The notes: a model not told the origin generated them from the letters alone. DNA of 64,000 nt from Malacoraja senta (GCA_038087875.1 CM075996.1:5458001-5522000); one strand, 5' to 3'. Counted from the first letter of the stretch, positions 31,081 to 59,372 are shown. Numbers and translations: made by a program.

Positions 31081-33649
31081 TATAGTTCTGGTCACACTGC
31101 AGCCTGACCTGCTGAGTCTTTTATTTTTAAACCACCATCTCCAGTTCCTTTTCTCTCCAAGTGTTGAAGGATGTTGAGAAGAGTAGATCAGATCTGCGTT
31201 GGCAGCTATCAACTGGATTAGTCGAAAGGTCTCTCACCGTCACCTTAACTGTACCATCCGATACAATCACTCCACTCTTTTAAATCTCTTTCTACCTGTC
31301 GTACTTGTGTTTGGCTTGTGTAGTATTACCTAATTTGATTAGACAGCACACAAACAAAAGCTTTTTACTGAATGTCAGCGCTCGTGACAATAATAAACCT
31401 AAACCGCGGCAACATTTTGCTTAAGTATTCTCCAGGAATGCAATCCTTGTGCAGTCTGCAACAATGAGCATCAAGACAAAGGAGGGCATCAAGTCAGAAG
31501 GCAGGTCCCAAAGATGCTGCCATACAAGCTGAGTTACTCCAGCACTTTGTGTCTTTTTTTTTTATCAAGACAAAAACACACACATTGGTTCTTCCTAAAA
31601 ACATTGAAAAGGCCGCAACTTTTAAATATGCTCCCCCCGCTGGTACCCGTTAACAAATTTGGTGTTTTGCCAACAGCGAGGTCGATTTTTCATACACCAG
31701 TGTTGAACCATGCTGGCAACATTTGCCACTGTCAATGCTTGGCCAGAGTTGGGCACCAGGTATTATGGATAGACACAAAAAGCTGGAGTAACTCAGTGGG
31801 ACAGGCAGCATCTCTGGAGAGAAGGAAAGGATGACGTTTCGGGTCGAGACCCTTCTTCAGGCCCGACCCGACCCGAAATGTCACCCACTCCTTCTCTCCA
31901 GAGATGCTGCCCGTCCTGCTGAGTTACGCCAGCTTTTTGTGTCTATCTTCGGTTGCAAGGGAAAGGTTTTCACCTTGGCAGCAGTTGTGATCTGGAACTC
32001 ATGATCTAGAAGGGTGGGTAAAACAAAAGAGAGTGCTTTCAATAAGTAGCGTACCAGAGAGAATAATTTGCAGACTTTGGGGGAGGAAGTAGAACAATGG
32101 GACTGATTGATTGATTGATACAGCATGGAAACAGGCCATTCAGCCCATCTAGTCCACGCCGACCATCAATCACCCGTTCACACCAGTTCTATGTCATGCC
32201 ACTTTCGCATCCACTTCCTACACATCAGGGGCAATTTACAATTAACCTACAAACCCACATGACTTTGGGATGTGGGAGGAAACTTGAGCACCCGGAGAAA
32301 ACCCGCACGGTCACAGGGAGAACGTGCAAACTCCACACAGAGCGGGTTACGCTACTGGAAACTAGCATTGATTTCCTGAGCGAAATGGTCTTGCTCGGTG
32401 CATTAACAATTCACGCAAAGCTGCAAATCACAAATCCACTTGTGCACCAATAATGTGTAAGAAAGAACTGCAGATGCTGGTTTAAATCGAAGGTAGACAC
32501 AAAACCTGGAGTAACTCAGCGGGTGAGGCAGCATCTCTGGAGCGAAGGAATGGGCGACGTTTTGGGTCGAGACCTAGACTGAAGAAGGGTCTCGACCCGA
32601 AACATCGGCCATTCTTTCTCTCCTGAGATGCTGCCTCATCTGCTGTGTGCACCAATAATGGTGCATTCTAGAACCAGACCAACCAGGCAAGAGGAAAAAA
32701 AGGACACAAAGTGCTGGAGTAAGTCAGCAGAACAGGCAGCCTCACTGGAGAACATGGATAGGTGATGTTTTGGGTTGGGACCCTTCTTCAGATGTCACCT
32801 ATCCAGGTTCTCCAGAGATCCTTGTCTGACCAGCCGAGTTACTCCAGCACTTAGTGTCCCTTGTGTAGGAAGGAACTGCAGATGCTGGTTTACACTGAAG
32901 ATAGACACAAAGAGCTGGAGTAACTCAGCAGTTCAGGCAGCATCTATTGAGAACCTGAAGATCTGTCTGAAGAAGGGTCTCAACCCGAAATGTCACCTAT
33001 TCCATTTCTCCAGAGATGCTTTAAGAGGAAAAAAATGTAGGTCAGAAAAAGGGTTCCCTCATTACTTGCAAAGATATTTGTGACAATTTACAAATGCTAT
33101 TTAAATAAGCAATAGGAAGACTAAGAAGGGAAATACTTCACAATGCAGTATATGGTAGGGCCCTAGGGAGTGTGGAGCCAGTGGAACCTCAATGATCCCA
33201 GGAGGTGGCAGCACAGGCAGACAAGGTAGTGAAGAAGGCACATAGGAAATGTGTAGGAAGGAACTGCAGATGCTGGTTTAAACTGAAGAGAGACACAAAA
33301 AGCTGGAGTAACTCAGCGGGACAGGCAGCATCTCTGGAGAGAAGGAATGCATGACGTTTCGGGTCGAGACCCTTCTTCAGACTGAAAGTCACGGGGAAGG
33401 GAAACGAGAGATAGGCACATGGGATACTTGGCTTCATTAGCTTGGGCCACGGAATATCACGGTAAAACATAGCTGCAGCACTGTATGTAGTTCTGGTCAT
33501 CACCAGAAGAATGCAATTGCAGTCAAATTCACCGATCCACCGGAACGTTGGCCGGGACGGAGCATTTGAAGAGTGAAGAGTGTTTTATTGTCGTATGTTC
33601 CAAGACGGAAAAATGAAATTCTTACTTGCAGCAGCACAACAGATATGTA

Positions 33650-33791
33650 GGGGTGGGAGATTGCAACCTTCACGTAGTCCGCCCTGTTTCGACGACTGGT
33701 GTGCACAATCAAATAAGATCAAATAGAACAAGTTGTCCTACAACTTTAGGCTGTGCACGCCATACGCAAGAAGAAGAAGAAGAAGAAGAAG
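33650..33791 (+). mobile_element. Second copy of the GAA-tailed retroposon (ribozyme damaged)
   Basis: TSD AGATATGTA at 33641-33649 and 33792-33800. Same 5' GGGGTGGGAGATTGC start, but the P2 3' strand is deleted and P3 has a G>A change. Confidence 0.85.
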
Positions 33792-34138
33792 AGATATGTA
33801 AACATGTGTAAGAAAGAATTGCAGATGCTGGATTAAATCAAAAGTCGACATAAAATGCTGGAGTAACTCAGCAGGACAGGCAGCATCTCTGGAGAGAAGG
33901 AATGGGTGACGTTTCGGTTCGAGACCCTTCTCCAGATATGTGAACAAAGTACTCTGTAAAAATAATAAACAACAAATATATATACACATATATACACACA
34001 CACACACACACAAAAGTTCAGTATATTCATTGCATATTTTTTGTGGTATATTATGCTGACAGGAAGAAACTGCAGATGCTGGTTTAAACTGGAGATAGGC
34101 TCAACATGCTGGAGTAACTGCTGGAGTATATATATATA

Positions 34139-57268: not shown

Positions 57269-57539
57269 GAAGAAGGGACTCGGCCCGAAACGTCACCTAG
57301 TCCTTCGCTTCATAGATGCTGCCTCACCCGCTGAGTTTCTCCAGCATTTTTGCCTACCTTCGATTTTTCCAGCATCTGCAGTTCCTTCTTAAATAGAATA
57401 TCCGGTTTATGCTTTATTGTGTTGAACACAATATTTCTCAAATCCTACACAATCAGAGCTTGGACAATTGCAGGCTCACGAGCAAAAGTGTGTTTTCATC
57501 TCCCTCTGTCACCGAGGAATCATCTGAACCTCAAAAGGT

Positions 57540-57592
57540 GGGGTGGGAGATTGCAACCTTCACGTGGTCCGCCCTGTTTCGACGAATGCAAT
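57540..57592 (+). ncRNA. Predicted minimal HDV-like self-cleaving ribozyme
   Basis: P1 GGGGUGG/CCGCCCU, P2 AUUGCA/UGCAAU, P3 ACC/GGU, L3 UUCACGU, P1.1 G, mini-P4 U-UUCG-A and J4/2 CGAA, all in canonical nested double-pseudoknot order. Confidence 0.75.
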
Positions 57593-57723
57593 GAACCCGG
57601 TGTGCACAATCAATTAAGATCAAATAGAACAAGTTGTCCTACAACGTTCGGCTGTGCACGCCATACGCAAGAAGAAGAAGAGAAGAAGAAGAAGAAGAAA
57701 AAGAAGAAGAAGAAGAAGTAGAA
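57540..57723 (+). mobile_element. Short non-autonomous retroposon with 5' HDV-like ribozyme fold and (GAA)n tail
   Basis: TSD GAACC(T/C)CAAAAGGT at 57526-57539 and 57724-57737, GAA microsatellite tail, and the same 5' end as the copy at 33650. Confidence 0.85.
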
Positions 57724-59372
57724 GAACCCCAAAAGGTGACTTATCCAACTTGAAACTTTGCTGGAGTAACTCAGCGGGACAGGCAGCATCTCTGGTGAGA
57801 AGGAATGGGTGACGTTTCGGGTCGAGACCCTTCTTCAGACTGAGAGTCAGGGGAGAGGGAAACTAGAGGTACAAAAAGGCACAGAACCAGGTTTGTAGGT
57901 GAACTGGCCTCTAAATTGCCTCGAGTTTGCAGGGAGTGAATGAGAAAGTGAGACAACATTGAACTAGTGTGAATGGGGGGACCAATGGTGGGGGTGGACT
58001 CAAGGGCGTGCTTCCATGCCGTATTTGTCAATCAATTCAATGGTCCATACCATCATTCAGATTTCAATCTTCCATATCGCAATGCTCAGAATGTTAGCGT
58101 GGTCATTTTGGAGAGCAGTTAAGGCACAACCATCTTGCTGTGGGGTTCACATGCAGGTCAAATTAGATAAATTTAGCAGGATTTAATGAATCATGTGGGT
58201 TGTTTTGTTTTTTAACAGAAGTCTGACAGTTACACGGTCACCATGACTGACGTGGGCTTTATCTTCAACATTTGTTTAATTACCCAAATTAATAACCCCC
58301 CCACTGGCACTGTGGCATGCATATCCAGATCATTAGTTCAGACCCAGTCTGAAGAAGGGTTTCGGCCCGAAAACGTTGCCTATTTCCTTCGCTCCATAGA
58401 TGCTGTCGCACCCGCTGAGTTTCTCCAGCACTTTTGTCTACATTAGTTCAGACCCTCTGGGTTTCGCGTTTACACATCTACTGCGACAAACATTCCTGCC
58501 TTCTTGCACCAGTCCTTATCAGAAAGCACGACTAACCTTGTTTTAAACAGCAGTGACCGTGCTGGAGGCTGTCAGTGCAACAGTGCTCTGGCCATGTGCT
58601 CCTTCCAGTGACGGACAGAATCTCGGACAAGACAGATTTAATTGTCCTGCTCTTGTCCAGCATGGTAAAAGGTCGCCACAAAAACAGCTTTTTTCTGGAG
58701 CTAAAAACTGTTTGCCTGCAGTGGTGAACTTTGACAGTGCAGCGAGAACTCCGGCAACTATGGTTTCCAACTCTTGACACTCGATCCCCGGGACCACATT
58801 CACGCTCTGCACAGAAGCCGGCTTCAAAGGAAAAAAAGAGAGCAAATCTCTTTGTTTGTAATCTAACAGCCGAGGAAAGATCGGGAGGAGGTGGGTTAAA
58901 AAAAAAAATCTAAAAAAAAATCACACTGATTAAAATGAGGCCGGACTGTTGTCCAGCAGAAGTAGCCTGCACTTGTATGATGCGGGTTAATATTTGCACG
59001 GTCTGCACTTTACAAGGCAGGCAATGCACAGCAACAACTGACTCCATGAAACCAAAATAGTCAACTTGCAGCTGCTTGCCTTGCTCCAATCGACACATGC
59101 TTCTTAAATTATTATTATATTTTTTTAAGGTTTTTAATATCACAGAATCCATCACGTTCTTTATTTATTTTCTGAGTAACACCACAGGTGTTTGATCTCT
59201 TCATCTTGCAGCCCTCCAGGTCAGTGTTTGATAGGCAACGTTGCATGCCCGCACAAGTAGCTTATCATGTAGGTAAGCATTGCATCATAAAATGATCCCT
59301 CCAAGGTGAACGCCTGTGCTCGATTTAATTGTCCAAAACCATTTTAAAGGCACAACCAGCCTTTATTACTAC

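What the first reader, a model, noticed from the sequence alone, without database searches (positions are those of the whole stretch)
57540..57723. Short retroposon that begins exactly at G1 of a compact HDV-like ribozyme
Seen in sequence: the first 53 nt of this TSD-flanked, GAA-tailed element give every HDV-fold element in order. These are P1 5' GGGGUGG (57540-46), P2 5' AUUGCA (57550-55), P3 ACC (57556-58), L3 UUCACGU (57559-65), P3' GGU (57566-68), P1 3' CCGCCCU (57569-75, giving a G1-U wobble), P1.1 G (57576), P4 reduced to U-UUCG-A (57577-82), J4/2 CGAA with the putative catalytic C at 57583, and P2 3' UGCAAU (57587-92). Both copies in the window start at the same G, which is the predicted cleavage site, and I see no tRNA-type A/B boxes. 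Established: HDV-like ribozymes process the 5' ends of R2, RTE and L1Tc/ingi retrotransposons. Inference: this is a promoterless 'ribozyme SINE' that cuts itself out of read-through transcripts and borrows a LINE reverse transcriptase. I do not recall such a family described in elasmobranchs, but I cannot check that here.
Basis: partly seen in the sequence, partly recalled or inferred. Interest (0 to 1): 0.92.

Follow-up and report, generated by a model that had tools for sequence, protein, structure and literature searches.

The report
Ribozyme-headed short retroposon of an RTE LINE
This is a short, very abundant mobile element whose first 53 bases are a stripped-down self-cutting RNA of the hepatitis-delta type, copied from the front end of a jumping gene in the same genome whose own version closely matches the ribozyme so far known only from the mammalian CPEB3 gene.

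Summary
Window 57540-57723 is a retroposon with target-site duplications and an (AAG)n tail. Its first 53 nt give every HDV-fold element as described.

- **Copy number and 5' end:** the head occurs 5,782 times in the genome at 3 or fewer mismatches. Copies begin at G1.
- **Conservation of the fold:** a second short family (1,772 heads) and an autonomous, roughly 3.2-kb RTE/Rex3-like LINE carry the same ribozyme at their 5' ends. That LINE has copies with frames of 1,008-1,014 aa without stops. L3 (UUCACGU), the G after P1 and the J4/2 C-N-A-A are constant, while P1, P2 and P3 covary completely.
- **Mobilisation:** the LINE also ends in (AAG)n, so it is the likely mobiliser.
- **Link to CPEB3:** the LINE heads, which keep P4, score 51-64 bits on Rfam's "Mammalian CPEB3 ribozyme" model (cut-off 35). 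The P4-less head in the window scores below every Rfam cut-off.

Self-cleavage, lack of a promoter and the taxon were not tested. No raw RNA reads were available.

The kind is known: HDV-like ribozymes on RTE LINEs, and bipartite non-autonomous RTE derivatives. The miniaturised ribozyme, and CPEB3-type ribozymes on a retrotransposon, appear new.

The parts
57526..57539 (+). 5' target-site duplication GAACCTCAAAAGGT
   Evidence: It matches 57724-57737 at 13 of 14 positions.
57540..57592 (+). Minimal (P4-less) HDV-like/CPEB3-type ribozyme head; the predicted cut is immediately 5' of G57540
   Evidence: All pairs are standard. It is the only descriptor hit in the window, with 0 hits in 7.3 Mb of shuffles. 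The best Rfam hit is RF02682 at 57540-57593, full model, 16.1 bits, E 1.3, below the cut-off of 44. The genome holds 5,782 copies at 3 or fewer mismatches.
57540..57546 (+). P1 5' strand GGGGUGG, pairing with 57569-57575 CCGCCCU (G1-U wobble)
   Evidence: P1 covaries across families: GGGGUC/GGCCCU, GGGGGUC/GACCCCU, GGGGAUC/GAUCCCU.
57550..57555 (+). P2 5' strand AUUGCA, pairing with 57587-57592 UGCAAU (pseudoknot)
   Evidence: The other families have GGAAAGA/UCUUUCC and GUAGAA/UUCUAC.
57556..57568 (+). P3 ACC/GGU closing L3 UUCACGU (57559-57565)
   Evidence: L3 is identical in SINE-2, in the LINE heads and in the Rfam CPEB3 consensus printed. P3 covaries: GCG/CGC and GCA/UGC.
57576..57586 (+). 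G for P1.1 (57576), 6-nt linker UUUCGA replacing P4 (57577-57582), and J4/2 CGAA with the putative catalytic C at 57583
   Evidence: J4/2 is CUAA in subfamily B and in the LINE, and CCAA in SINE-2. The C and the AA are constant.
57593..57649 (+). Body of unknown origin; it includes a hairpin-capable stretch, AAGUUGUCCUACAAC(G)UU
   Evidence: The body differs between subfamilies A and B while the head and the last 28 nt are kept.
57650..57668 (+). 3' terminal motif GGCTGTGCACGCCATACGC, just before the tail
   Evidence: It is kept in subfamilies A and B. Only the last 7-9 nt resemble the LINE and SINE-2 ends, AC.CGA.AAGAAG.
57669..57723 (+). Impure (AAG)n/(GAA)n tail
   Evidence: The same tail repeat is found on SINE-2 and on the LINE copy without stops in its frame.
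57724..57737 (+). 3' target-site duplication GAACCCCAAAAGGT
33650..33791 (+). Second copy of the same family, decayed (G>A at 33676 in P3; 12-nt deletion removing part of J4/2 and the P2 3' strand), flanked by TSD AGATATGTA (33641-33649 and 33792-33800)
   Evidence: The deletion junction is unique in the genome.

Best explanation
Window 57540-57723 is one copy of a short (about 130 nt plus tail), ORF-less, non-autonomous retroposon.

**What the head is.** Its first 53 nt are a miniaturised HDV-like ribozyme of the CPEB3 type. P1, P2, P3, L3, P1.1 and J4/2 are kept, and P4 is replaced by a 6-nt linker. The head is homologous to the ribozyme at the 5' terminus of an RTE/Rex3-like LINE in the same genome.

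**Proposed life cycle.**
1. Inferred: a source copy is transcribed as part of a longer host or read-through transcript.
2. Inferred from the fold; not assayed: the ribozyme cuts immediately 5' of G1 and so creates the element's exact 5' end.
3. Inferred: the LINE's APE-RT protein engages the (AAG)n tail and the few bases before it.
4. [quoted passage not shown]
For: **Fold and chance**
- All 17 proposed pairs are standard.
- The strict descriptor gives one hit in the window and none in 7.3 Mb of shuffles.

**5' end at G1**
- Of 50 distinct copies, the TSD abuts G1 exactly in 18. It overlaps the leading Gs by 1-3 nt in 18, stops 1-4 nt short in 12, and is absent in 2.
- By my reading of the printout, 29 of 30 loci retrieved with the 3' half alone reach the GGGG end.
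- In contigs of three runs (9,447, 2,686 and 731 contigs laid), homology ends at 57539/57540 with unrelated sequence before it.

**Conservation with covariation**

| Family | P1 | P2 | P3 | P4 / linker | J4/2 |
|---|---|---|---|---|---|
| SINE-1A | GGGGUGG/CCGCCCU | AUUGCA/UGCAAU | ACC/GGU | linker UUUCGA | CGAA |
| SINE-1B | GGGGUGG/CCACCCU | as 1A | as 1A | as 1A | CUAA |
| SINE-2 | GGGGUC/GGCCCU | GGAAAGA/UCUUUCC | GCG/CGC | linker UUUCCA | CCAA |
| LINE RTE-a | GGGGGUC/GACCCCU | GUAGAA/UUCUAC | GCA/UGC or GCG/CGC | full P4 | CUAA |
| LINE RTE-b | GGGGAUC/GAUCCCU | GUAGAA/UUCUA... (copy cut at the locus end) | GCG/CGC | P4 present | CGAA |

- L3 UUCACGU, the G after P1 and C-N-A-A are constant throughout.
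- A covariance model built from SINE-1 alone finds SINE-2 (20.9 bits, E 2.8e-4) and a LINE head (17.6 bits, E 0.0019).

**Partner LINE**
- A protein search finds 52 matches. They include frames of 1,008 and 1,014 aa without stops. The query protein carries APE and RT Pfam domains.
- 9 of 11 canonical head matches, and 10 of 39 Rfam-passing ribozymes, lie just upstream of ORF matches on the same strand.
- One copy without stops in its frame is about 3,224 bp, TSD-flanked (AGCTCCCTTC) and ends ...ACACGAAAAGAAGAAGAAG.

**Selection on the modules**
- Subfamilies A and B differ in the body but keep the head and the last 28 nt.
- The only copy seen that lacks the P2 3' strand is a private deletion (1 hit).

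**Abundance:** 5,782 heads at 3 or fewer mismatches, against 0 for the reversed control.
Against: - **Catalysis:** not tested. P4 is missing, and I only recall (I did not read it) that P4-less HDV-like ribozymes are active. The theta-ribozyme preprint (10.1101/2023.06.13.544163, abstract and passages) confirms that 'minimal HDV-like' ribozymes cleave in vitro.
- **Rfam:** the window element passes no gathering score. Its best hit is E 1.3.
- **Folding energy:** the nested fold of the head is not more stable than shuffles. The MFE is -12.4 kcal/mol, z +0.92, and 172 of 200 shuffles fold at least as well. For SINE-2 the nested MFE is not the proposed fold. Pseudoknots are not scored there.
- **Within-family covariation is weak:** 2 pairs change on both sides, and 19-26 of 500 shuffles reach the observed values. 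This is expected for young, neutrally decaying copies.
- **No RNA evidence:** no raw RNA reads were available, so the RNA 5' end was not seen.
- **Weak 3' link:** the resemblance between SINE-1 and the LINE is only about 7-9 nt plus the tail. No LINE carries SINE-1's own head (56 hits, all SINE variants).
- **Altered ribozymes that still spread or persist:** a SINE-2 subfamily with a 4-nt insertion beside L3 spread (19 identical 26-mers among 38 hits) and still starts at G1. One LINE copy without stops in its frame has a 27-nt unit repeated about 4 times inside its ribozyme. An altered ribozyme may therefore be tolerated, or may not be strictly needed.
Confidence: 0.75

Rival explanations
1. 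The head is a vestigial ribozyme. It descends from the LINE ribozyme but no longer cuts since P4 was lost. The exact G1 end comes instead from transcription starting there, from an internal promoter in the same bases, as in the dual promoter/ribozyme of L1Tc/NARTc.
For: - P4 is absent and no Rfam cut-off is reached.
- The nested fold is not unusually stable.
- A subfamily with an insertion beside L3 still spread with G1 ends.
- There is precedent for one 77-nt stretch being both promoter and ribozyme in L1Tc and NARTc (PMC3383444, abstract in the search listing).
Against: - Every propagating family or subfamily seen keeps all three helices through compensating changes, together with the J4/2 C. 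That is hard to explain without selection on the fold.
- The only copy seen that lacks the P2 3' strand is a private deletion.
Confidence: 0.15
2. It is an ordinary Pol III SINE. The 5' end is the Pol III start site and the ribozyme-like fold is incidental.
For: - Precise 5' ends and high copy number are typical of Pol III SINEs (established knowledge).
- The stretch GTTTCGA loosely resembles a B box (by eye).
Against: - ARAGORN finds nothing in 57400-57850.
- Rfam gives no tRNA, 5S, 7SL or snRNA match at E up to 10.
- The same head, with P4, sits at the 5' end of a protein-coding LINE, about 70 nt upstream of its ORF. That is not a Pol III context.
Confidence: 0.05
3. The resemblance to the HDV fold is a chance one in a repeat.
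For: HDV-like descriptors are loose. My shuffle test only bounds the rate to below about one per several Mb.
Against: - The cut site coincides with the TSD-defined 5' end.
- P2 and P3 covary fully across three families.
- LINE relatives score 51-64 bits on a curated ribozyme model.
Confidence: 0.01

Closest known systems
HDV-like ribozymes at the 5' ends of RTE-clade (and R2, R4, LOA/Baggins, L1Tc/ingi) non-LTR retrotransposons (Ruminski et al. 2011, not held here; summarised in PMC6765202 and PMC5786205, passages and section 23 read)
   Same: - The ribozyme sits at the very 5' end of the element.
- The cut site equals the element's 5' junction.
- The element is thought to be released from co-transcripts.
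- The partner LINE here is RTE-like: a single roughly 1,000-aa ORF, whose query protein carries APE and RT domains, in about 3.2 kb with almost no UTRs.
   Different: - Here the ribozyme is of the CPEB3 sequence type, scoring 51-64 bits on RF00622.
- It is also carried, in P4-less form, by short non-coding derivatives with thousands of copies.
Bipartite ORF-less non-autonomous LINEs of RTE, Ingi/Vingi and R2 (RTESINE2, WALLSI3, Bov-A, NARTc, R2 SIDEs; Kojima 2018, PMC5786205 section 23; PMC3414825 and PMC3383444 abstracts)
   Same: - No ORF; the LINE's 5' end is joined to a LINE-like 3' end; mobilised in trans.
- Kojima already suggests that the 5' ribozyme explains why such elements keep the LINE's true 5' end.
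- NARTc and the R2 SIDEs keep an HDV-like ribozyme.
   Different: - SINE-1 shares with the LINE only the ribozyme architecture and about 7-9 nt plus the (AAG)n tail.
- Its helices are all re-written and P4 is deleted.
- Its body is of unknown origin.
- No LINE with its exact head was found.
Mammalian CPEB3 ribozyme (Rfam RF00622)
   Same: - Identical L3 UUCACGU.
- Same P3 GCG/CGC in SINE-2 and the LINE.
- Similar P1, J1/2, GU after P1 and J4/2 CGAA or CUAA.
- LINE heads match the full model at 51-64 bits against a cut-off of 35.
   Different: - CPEB3 is a single intronic copy reported only from mammals (PMC8233481, passage read). Here it is a multi-copy retrotransposon head.
- The window element itself gives no RF00622 hit at E up to 10.
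Minimal HDV-like ribozymes (drz-Mtgn, theta ribozymes of gut phages; 10.1101/2023.06.13.544163, abstract and passages; Riccitelli 2014, recalled)
   Same: A very short double-pseudoknot core with P4 reduced or absent. Such cores self-cleave in vitro.
   Different: Those come from phages and metagenomes and process tRNA trailers or messages. This one is in a large (about 1.9 Gb) eukaryotic genome at a retroposon 5' end and derives from a P4-bearing LINE ribozyme.
Rex3 of teleost fishes (RTE-related LINE; PMC6274825, passage read)
   Same: - The stop codon is practically at the tail.
- The tail starts with GAA repeats, GCG(GAA)2(GATG)n.
- It has an EN-RT single ORF and TSDs.
- The best named homologue of the LINE fragment here is a teleost protein at 62% identity.
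   Different: The tail here is pure (AAG)n/(GAA)n without GATG repeats. Clade placement by phylogeny was not done.

Membership tests
HDV-like self-cleaving ribozyme (nested double pseudoknot) | P1 starting at the cleavage-site G, with a G-U wobble at its base | tested here: met
   GGGGUGG/CCGCCCU, 7 of 7 standard pairs with G1-U. G1 equals the TSD-defined 5' end.
HDV-like self-cleaving ribozyme (nested double pseudoknot) | P2 pseudoknot and a 3-bp P3 closing a 7-nt L3 whose C pairs with the G after P1 (P1.1) | tested here: met
   AUUGCA/UGCAAU; ACC/GGU; L3 UUCACGU; G57576. P2 and P3 covary fully across three families.
HDV-like self-cleaving ribozyme (nested double pseudoknot) | Catalytic C in J4/2 | tested here: met
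   C57583 lies in CGAA. The C and the AA are constant in CGAA, CUAA and CCAA across families. Only its presence is shown, not its role.
HDV-like self-cleaving ribozyme (nested double pseudoknot) | P4 helix | tested here: not met
   P4 is replaced by the 6-nt UUUCGA. The LINE relatives have a 10-bp P4. That P4 is dispensable is recalled, not tested.
HDV-like self-cleaving ribozyme (nested double pseudoknot) | Site-specific, Mg2+-dependent self-cleavage | not testable with these tools
   No raw RNA reads were available. This needs a bench assay.
Rfam RF00622 CPEB3_ribozyme | Score at or above the gathering cut-off of 35 bits | tested here: not met
   - Window element: no RF00622 hit at E up to 10.
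- SINE-2 copies: 8-18 bits, although one SINE-2a copy reaches 37.4.
- LINE heads: the test is met, at 59.7, 54.5, 51.1 and 39.9 bits; 39 of 51 listed genome matches are over the cut-off.
Rfam RF02682 HDV-F-prausnitzii | Score at or above the gathering cut-off of 44 bits | tested here: not met
   16.1 bits, E 1.3, although the match covers the full model and spans exactly 57540-57593.
SINE in the strict sense (Pol III head from tRNA, 7SL or 5S) | Head homologous to a Pol III gene with A and B boxes | tested here: not met
   ARAGORN gives 0. Rfam gives no such family at E up to 10.
Bipartite non-autonomous RTE derivative | 5' end homologous to the LINE 5' end | tested here: met
   The SINE-2 head is closely similar to the LINE heads. 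SINE-1 shares the architecture, L3, G and C-N-AA, and its model finds the LINE head at E 0.0019.
Bipartite non-autonomous RTE derivative | 3' end homologous to the LINE 3' end | tested here: inconclusive
   Only AC.CG(A/C) plus (AAG)n is shared. The LINE has practically no 3' UTR. No LINE context was found for the 22-nt SINE-1 tail (17 hits: subfamily B copies, 5'-truncated copies and single chimeras).
RTE clade LINE (the partner) | Single ORF of about 1,000 aa with N-terminal APE and RT, an element of about 3.2 kb, minimal UTRs and a short-repeat tail | tested here: met
   - The query P0001 carries PF03372, PF14529 and PF00078.
- Frames of 1,008 and 1,014 aa are without stops.
- One copy spans about 3,224 bp from TSD to TSD, and its frame stays open into the (AAG)n tail.
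- RT phylogeny was not done.

The most novel reading that the evidence does not exclude
The mammalian CPEB3 ribozyme is not a mammalian invention. It is an exapted 5' head of an RTE/Rex3-type retrotransposon, or of one of its ribozyme-headed short derivatives, that landed in the CPEB3 intron.

The LINE heads in this genome would then be the missing outgroup. They match the curated CPEB3 model end to end at up to 64 bits, with the same L3, P3, J1/2 and J4/2 letters. The P4-less retroposons show that the same lineage can shrink the ribozyme to 53 nt and still spread to thousands of copies.
Probability: 0.45. Interest if true: 0.85.

Novelty: new variant of a known kind. Interest (0 to 1): 0.72.

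Why it matters
**A natural minimal ribozyme on a eukaryotic mobile element.** The 53-nt head appears to be selected in vivo, and it has a built-in series for studying which parts of the fold are needed: the full-P4 LINE version, two P4-less versions and an L3-insertion subfamily.

**An explanation for clean 5' ends.** The ribozyme would account for how a promoter-poor RTE family and its parasites obtain exact 5' ends.

**The origin of the CPEB3 ribozyme becomes testable.** CPEB3-type ribozymes are described in print as absent outside mammals (PMC8233481). My searches found no paper linking CPEB3 to RTE elements. Finding dozens of such ribozymes on an apparently active LINE family therefore opens that question to direct test, and by extension the proposed cellular ancestry of HDV ribozymes.

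Tried and rejected
- **Covariance model on the genome:** I used IUPAC pattern searches instead.
- **Search for a LINE with SINE-1's exact head:** the last 20 nt of the ribozyme followed by non-SINE bases gave 56 hits. All were indel or truncated SINE variants.
- **Search for a LINE with SINE-1's 22-nt tail:** 17 hits. They were subfamily B copies, 5'-truncated copies and single chimeras, with no recurrent LINE 3' end.
- **(AAG)n-tailed repeats in about 360 kb of fetched DNA:** this turned up SINE-2 only.
- **Within-family covariation:** uninformative, because the copies are 95% or more alike.
- **Nested folding energies:** not distinctive.
- **Sequencing runs:** only assembled contigs were served, with no raw RNA reads. 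Neither expression nor the RNA 5' end could be examined. One small RNA run (X21) laid nothing.
- **Earlier findings of this scan:** nothing on this genome or sequence.
- **MAFFT across families:** it misaligned the P4-bearing and P4-less forms. Cross-family pairs were therefore checked by script and not with the count of structure pairs.
- **Ruminski 2011:** could not be read.
- **Taxon:** not determined.

Full report
**Observation**

The sequence at 57540-57723 is as described. A script confirmed that every proposed pair is a standard pair:
- P1 GGGGUGG/CCGCCCU, with G1-U.
- P2 AUUGCA/UGCAAU.
- P3 ACC/GGU around L3 UUCACGU.
- G57576, a 6-nt linker UUUCGA where P4 would be, J4/2 CGAA with C57583, then the P2 3' strand.

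The element is flanked by GAACCTCAAAAGGT and GAACCCCAAAAGGT and ends in an impure (AAG)n tail.

The second window copy (33650-33791) starts at the same G behind the TSD AGATATGTA. It carries a G>A in P3 and a 12-nt deletion that removes part of J4/2 and the P2 3' strand. That deletion junction occurs once in the whole genome, so it is a private, post-insertion lesion.

A strict HDV-like descriptor matched the 128 kb of both window strands exactly once, at 57540-57592. It matched 7.3 Mb of dinucleotide shuffles not at all.

**What speaks against the fold, taken alone**

- Rfam at gathering thresholds finds nothing in the window.
- At E up to 10 the best hit is the F. prausnitzii HDV model. It spans exactly 57540-57593 and the full model, but scores only 16.1 bits against a cut-off of 44, E 1.3.
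- The nested MFE of the head is the proposed P1+P3 fold but is no better than shuffles (z +0.92; 172 of 200 shuffles fold at least as well). For the second family the nested MFE is a different fold. These programs cannot score the P2 pseudoknot.
- Within the family the copies are about 95% alike, so covariation is nearly uninformative: 2 pairs with double changes, and 19-26 of 500 shuffles reach the observed measures.

**The family and its 5' end**

The window lies in a 1.94-Gb genome. The 53-nt head occurs 5,782 times at 3 or fewer mismatches, against 0 for the reversed control.

In 50 distinct copies taken from the best DNA matches:

| Where the TSD ends, relative to G1 | Copies |
|---|---|
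| Abuts G1 exactly | 18 |
| Runs 1-3 nt into the leading Gs (ambiguous) | 18 |
| Stops 1-4 nt short | 12 |
| No TSD found | 2 |

Three further loci (L040, L044, L050) were dropped from that count because an internal deletion or a 5' replacement removed the anchor.

By my reading of the printout, 29 of 30 loci fetched with the 3' half alone (and so unbiased for the 5' end) reach the GGGG end.

Contigs of three public runs from three coded organisms hold the family (9,447, 2,686 and 731 contigs laid). They lose homology at 57539/57540, with unrelated sequence before it. These were assemblies, not raw reads. They say nothing about RNA ends or expression.

**Relatives that make the case**

*Subfamily B.* A search for the element's tail in other contexts revealed a subfamily with a different body. 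It has the same head and the same last 28 nt. Its P1 reads U-A instead of U-G, and its J4/2 is CUAA.

*SINE-2.* By chance, the flanks of two loci held a second family of about 176 nt, also (AAG)n-tailed and also starting at G1 behind clean TSDs. Its head reads:
- P1 GGGGUC/GGCCCU.
- P2 GGAAAGA/UCUUUCC.
- P3 GCG/CGC.
- The same L3 UUCACGU, then G, the linker UUUCCA and J4/2 CCAA.

Its head occurs 1,772 times at 3 or fewer mismatches.

*LINE heads with P4.* A pattern asking for the L3-P1 core without the P4-less linker found low-copy relatives with a full P4. They have P1 GGGGGUC/GACCCCU, P2 GUAGAA/UUCUAC, P3 GCA/UGC or GCG/CGC, a 10-bp P4 and J4/2 CUAA. One of them runs on into a broken APE-type reading frame.

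Across the families P2 and P3 are completely re-written and P1 partly. L3, the G after P1, and the C and AA of J4/2 never change.

A covariance model built from SINE-1 copies alone, with P1+P3 only, finds SINE-2 at 20.9 bits (E 2.8e-4) and a LINE head at 17.6 bits (E 0.0019).

**The autonomous partner**

- The APE fragment, read with X at its one TGA, finds a 996-aa APE+RT protein on a 3.2-kb contig at 66% identity. The best named relative is a teleost protein.
- With that protein the genome gives 52 matches. They include frames of 1,008 and 1,014 aa without stops.
- A canonical head pattern (GGGAUC...GAUCCCU) has 11 matches. Nine of them lie about 110-145 nt, or a proportionate distance, upstream of those ORF matches on the same strand.
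- One copy without stops in its frame (C4) is about 3,224 bp from TSD to TSD (AGCTCCCTTC). It starts AA+GGGGAUC and ends ...ACACGAAAAGAAGAAGAAG, with the frame open into the tail, so it has practically no 3' UTR.
- That copy also has a 27-nt unit of the ribozyme repeated about four times, which I cannot explain.
- The anatomy is that of the RTE clade and is close to what is written of teleost Rex3: a stop codon 3 nt before GAA repeats (PMC6274825, passage read). I did not make an RT tree.
- The 3' ends of the LINE, SINE-2 and SINE-1 share only AC.CG(A/C).(AAG)n. The assignment of this LINE as SINE-1's mobiliser is therefore an inference from the tail, the TSDs and the shared head.

**Mechanism**

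*Shown:*
- The retroposon anatomy.
- A 5' end at G1.
- A conserved and covarying double-pseudoknot head shared with a LINE that has copies with frames free of stops.

*Inferred:*
- The head cleaves read-through transcripts 5' of G1.
- The RTE protein primes on the (AAG)n end.
- The short RNA is copied to its ribozyme-made end.

*Main rival:* the P4-less head no longer cuts and G1 is a transcription start, as in the dual promoter/ribozyme of L1Tc and NARTc (PMC3383444, abstract). Two observations leave room for it:
- A SINE-2 subfamily with a 4-nt insertion beside L3 still spread: 19 identical 26-mers among 38 hits, with G1 ends in both copies read.
- One LINE copy without stops in its frame carries the repeat-bearing head described above.

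A Pol III SINE is unlikely. Chance is excluded by the cross-family comparison.

**Comparison with what is known**

- HDV-like ribozymes at the 5' ends of RTE and other LINE clades are established (Ruminski 2011, which I could not read; summarised in PMC6765202 and PMC5786205).
- ORF-less bipartite derivatives of RTE, Ingi/Vingi and R2 are known. Kojima explicitly suggests that the ribozyme is why they keep the LINE's true 5' end (PMC5786205, section 23).
- NARTc and the R2 SIDEs are ribozyme-bearing non-autonomous elements (abstracts).

Three things appear new:
- The 53-nt P4-less core on a eukaryotic retroposon.
- Its complete helix turnover relative to the LINE.
- Its sequence type, described next.

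**The CPEB3 connection**

The LINE heads match Rfam's 'Mammalian CPEB3 ribozyme' model over its full length at 59.7, 54.5, 51.1 and 39.9 bits, against a cut-off of 35.

A whole-genome family search lists 51 matches, 39 of them over the cut-off, the best at 64.2 bits. Only 59 of about 102,000 first-look candidates were scored. Ten of the 39 lie directly upstream of ORF matches.

The printed alignments show the same L3, P3, GU after P1 and J4/2, and similar P1, J1/2 and P2.

[quoted passage not shown] A 2024 paper says that retrotransposon-related ribozymes other than LINE-1's have not been seen in mammals (PMC11620745, passage read). My searches for a stated CPEB3-RTE link found none. Subscription papers and Rfam's own full hit lists were not visible to me.

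The boldest reading the data allow is that the CPEB3 ribozyme descends from such an RTE head. This rests on sequence similarity alone and on an undetermined host taxon.

**Verdict**

I file it as a new variant of a known kind, with a side finding that could matter more than the element itself.

Noticed in passing
L110:68-156(-), L111:68-156(-), L107:296-384(-), L108:23-97(+); genome places: The 5' heads of an RTE-like LINE pass Rfam's cut-off for the 'Mammalian CPEB3 ribozyme' (up to 64.2 bits against 35). 39 of the 51 listed matches in this genome are over the cut-off.
   Followed up: partly
L113 (G000:C4:35489670-35489830, minus strand): A LINE copy with a 1,008-aa frame without stops has a 27-nt unit repeated about four times in tandem inside its ribozyme. 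The unit runs from the second half of the P1 5' strand through J1/2, P2 5', P3 and L3 to P3'. The cause and the effect on cleavage are unknown.
   Followed up: no
L104:57-113(+), L105:240-296(-); places: A SINE-2 subfamily carries a 4-nt CGAT insertion right after L3. There are 19 identical 26-mers among 38 hits. Many are clustered on contig C2 at 87-90 Mb and 192-196 Mb.
   Followed up: partly
L034-L039: The same SINE-1 insertion, with the same flanks and TSD, appears on six different, mostly unplaced contigs. This could be a segmental or tandem duplication, or assembly redundancy. One of these copies shows a G-C to C-G swap in P1.
   Followed up: no
L092 (G000:C1:40590060-40596100, minus strand, last 100 nt): The last 42 nt of SINE-1 subfamily B, plus the tail, are fused to the 3' end of an unrelated abundant repeat. 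This looks like a template-switch chimera. L100, L101 and L103 show similar one-off fusions.
   Followed up: no
window 57300-57390 and 57762-57850: Inverted copies of an abundant hairpin-like repeat (gctggagtaactcagc...gacgtttcgggtcgagaccc) flank the element. The same repeat recurs in many fetched loci.
   Followed up: no
L108:23-97(+), L109:21-96(+): A further, decayed CPEB3-type ribozyme family ('Fam4') with a short P4 scores 39.9 and 28.5 bits. One copy has U in place of the J4/2 C. What lies downstream was not identified.
   Followed up: no
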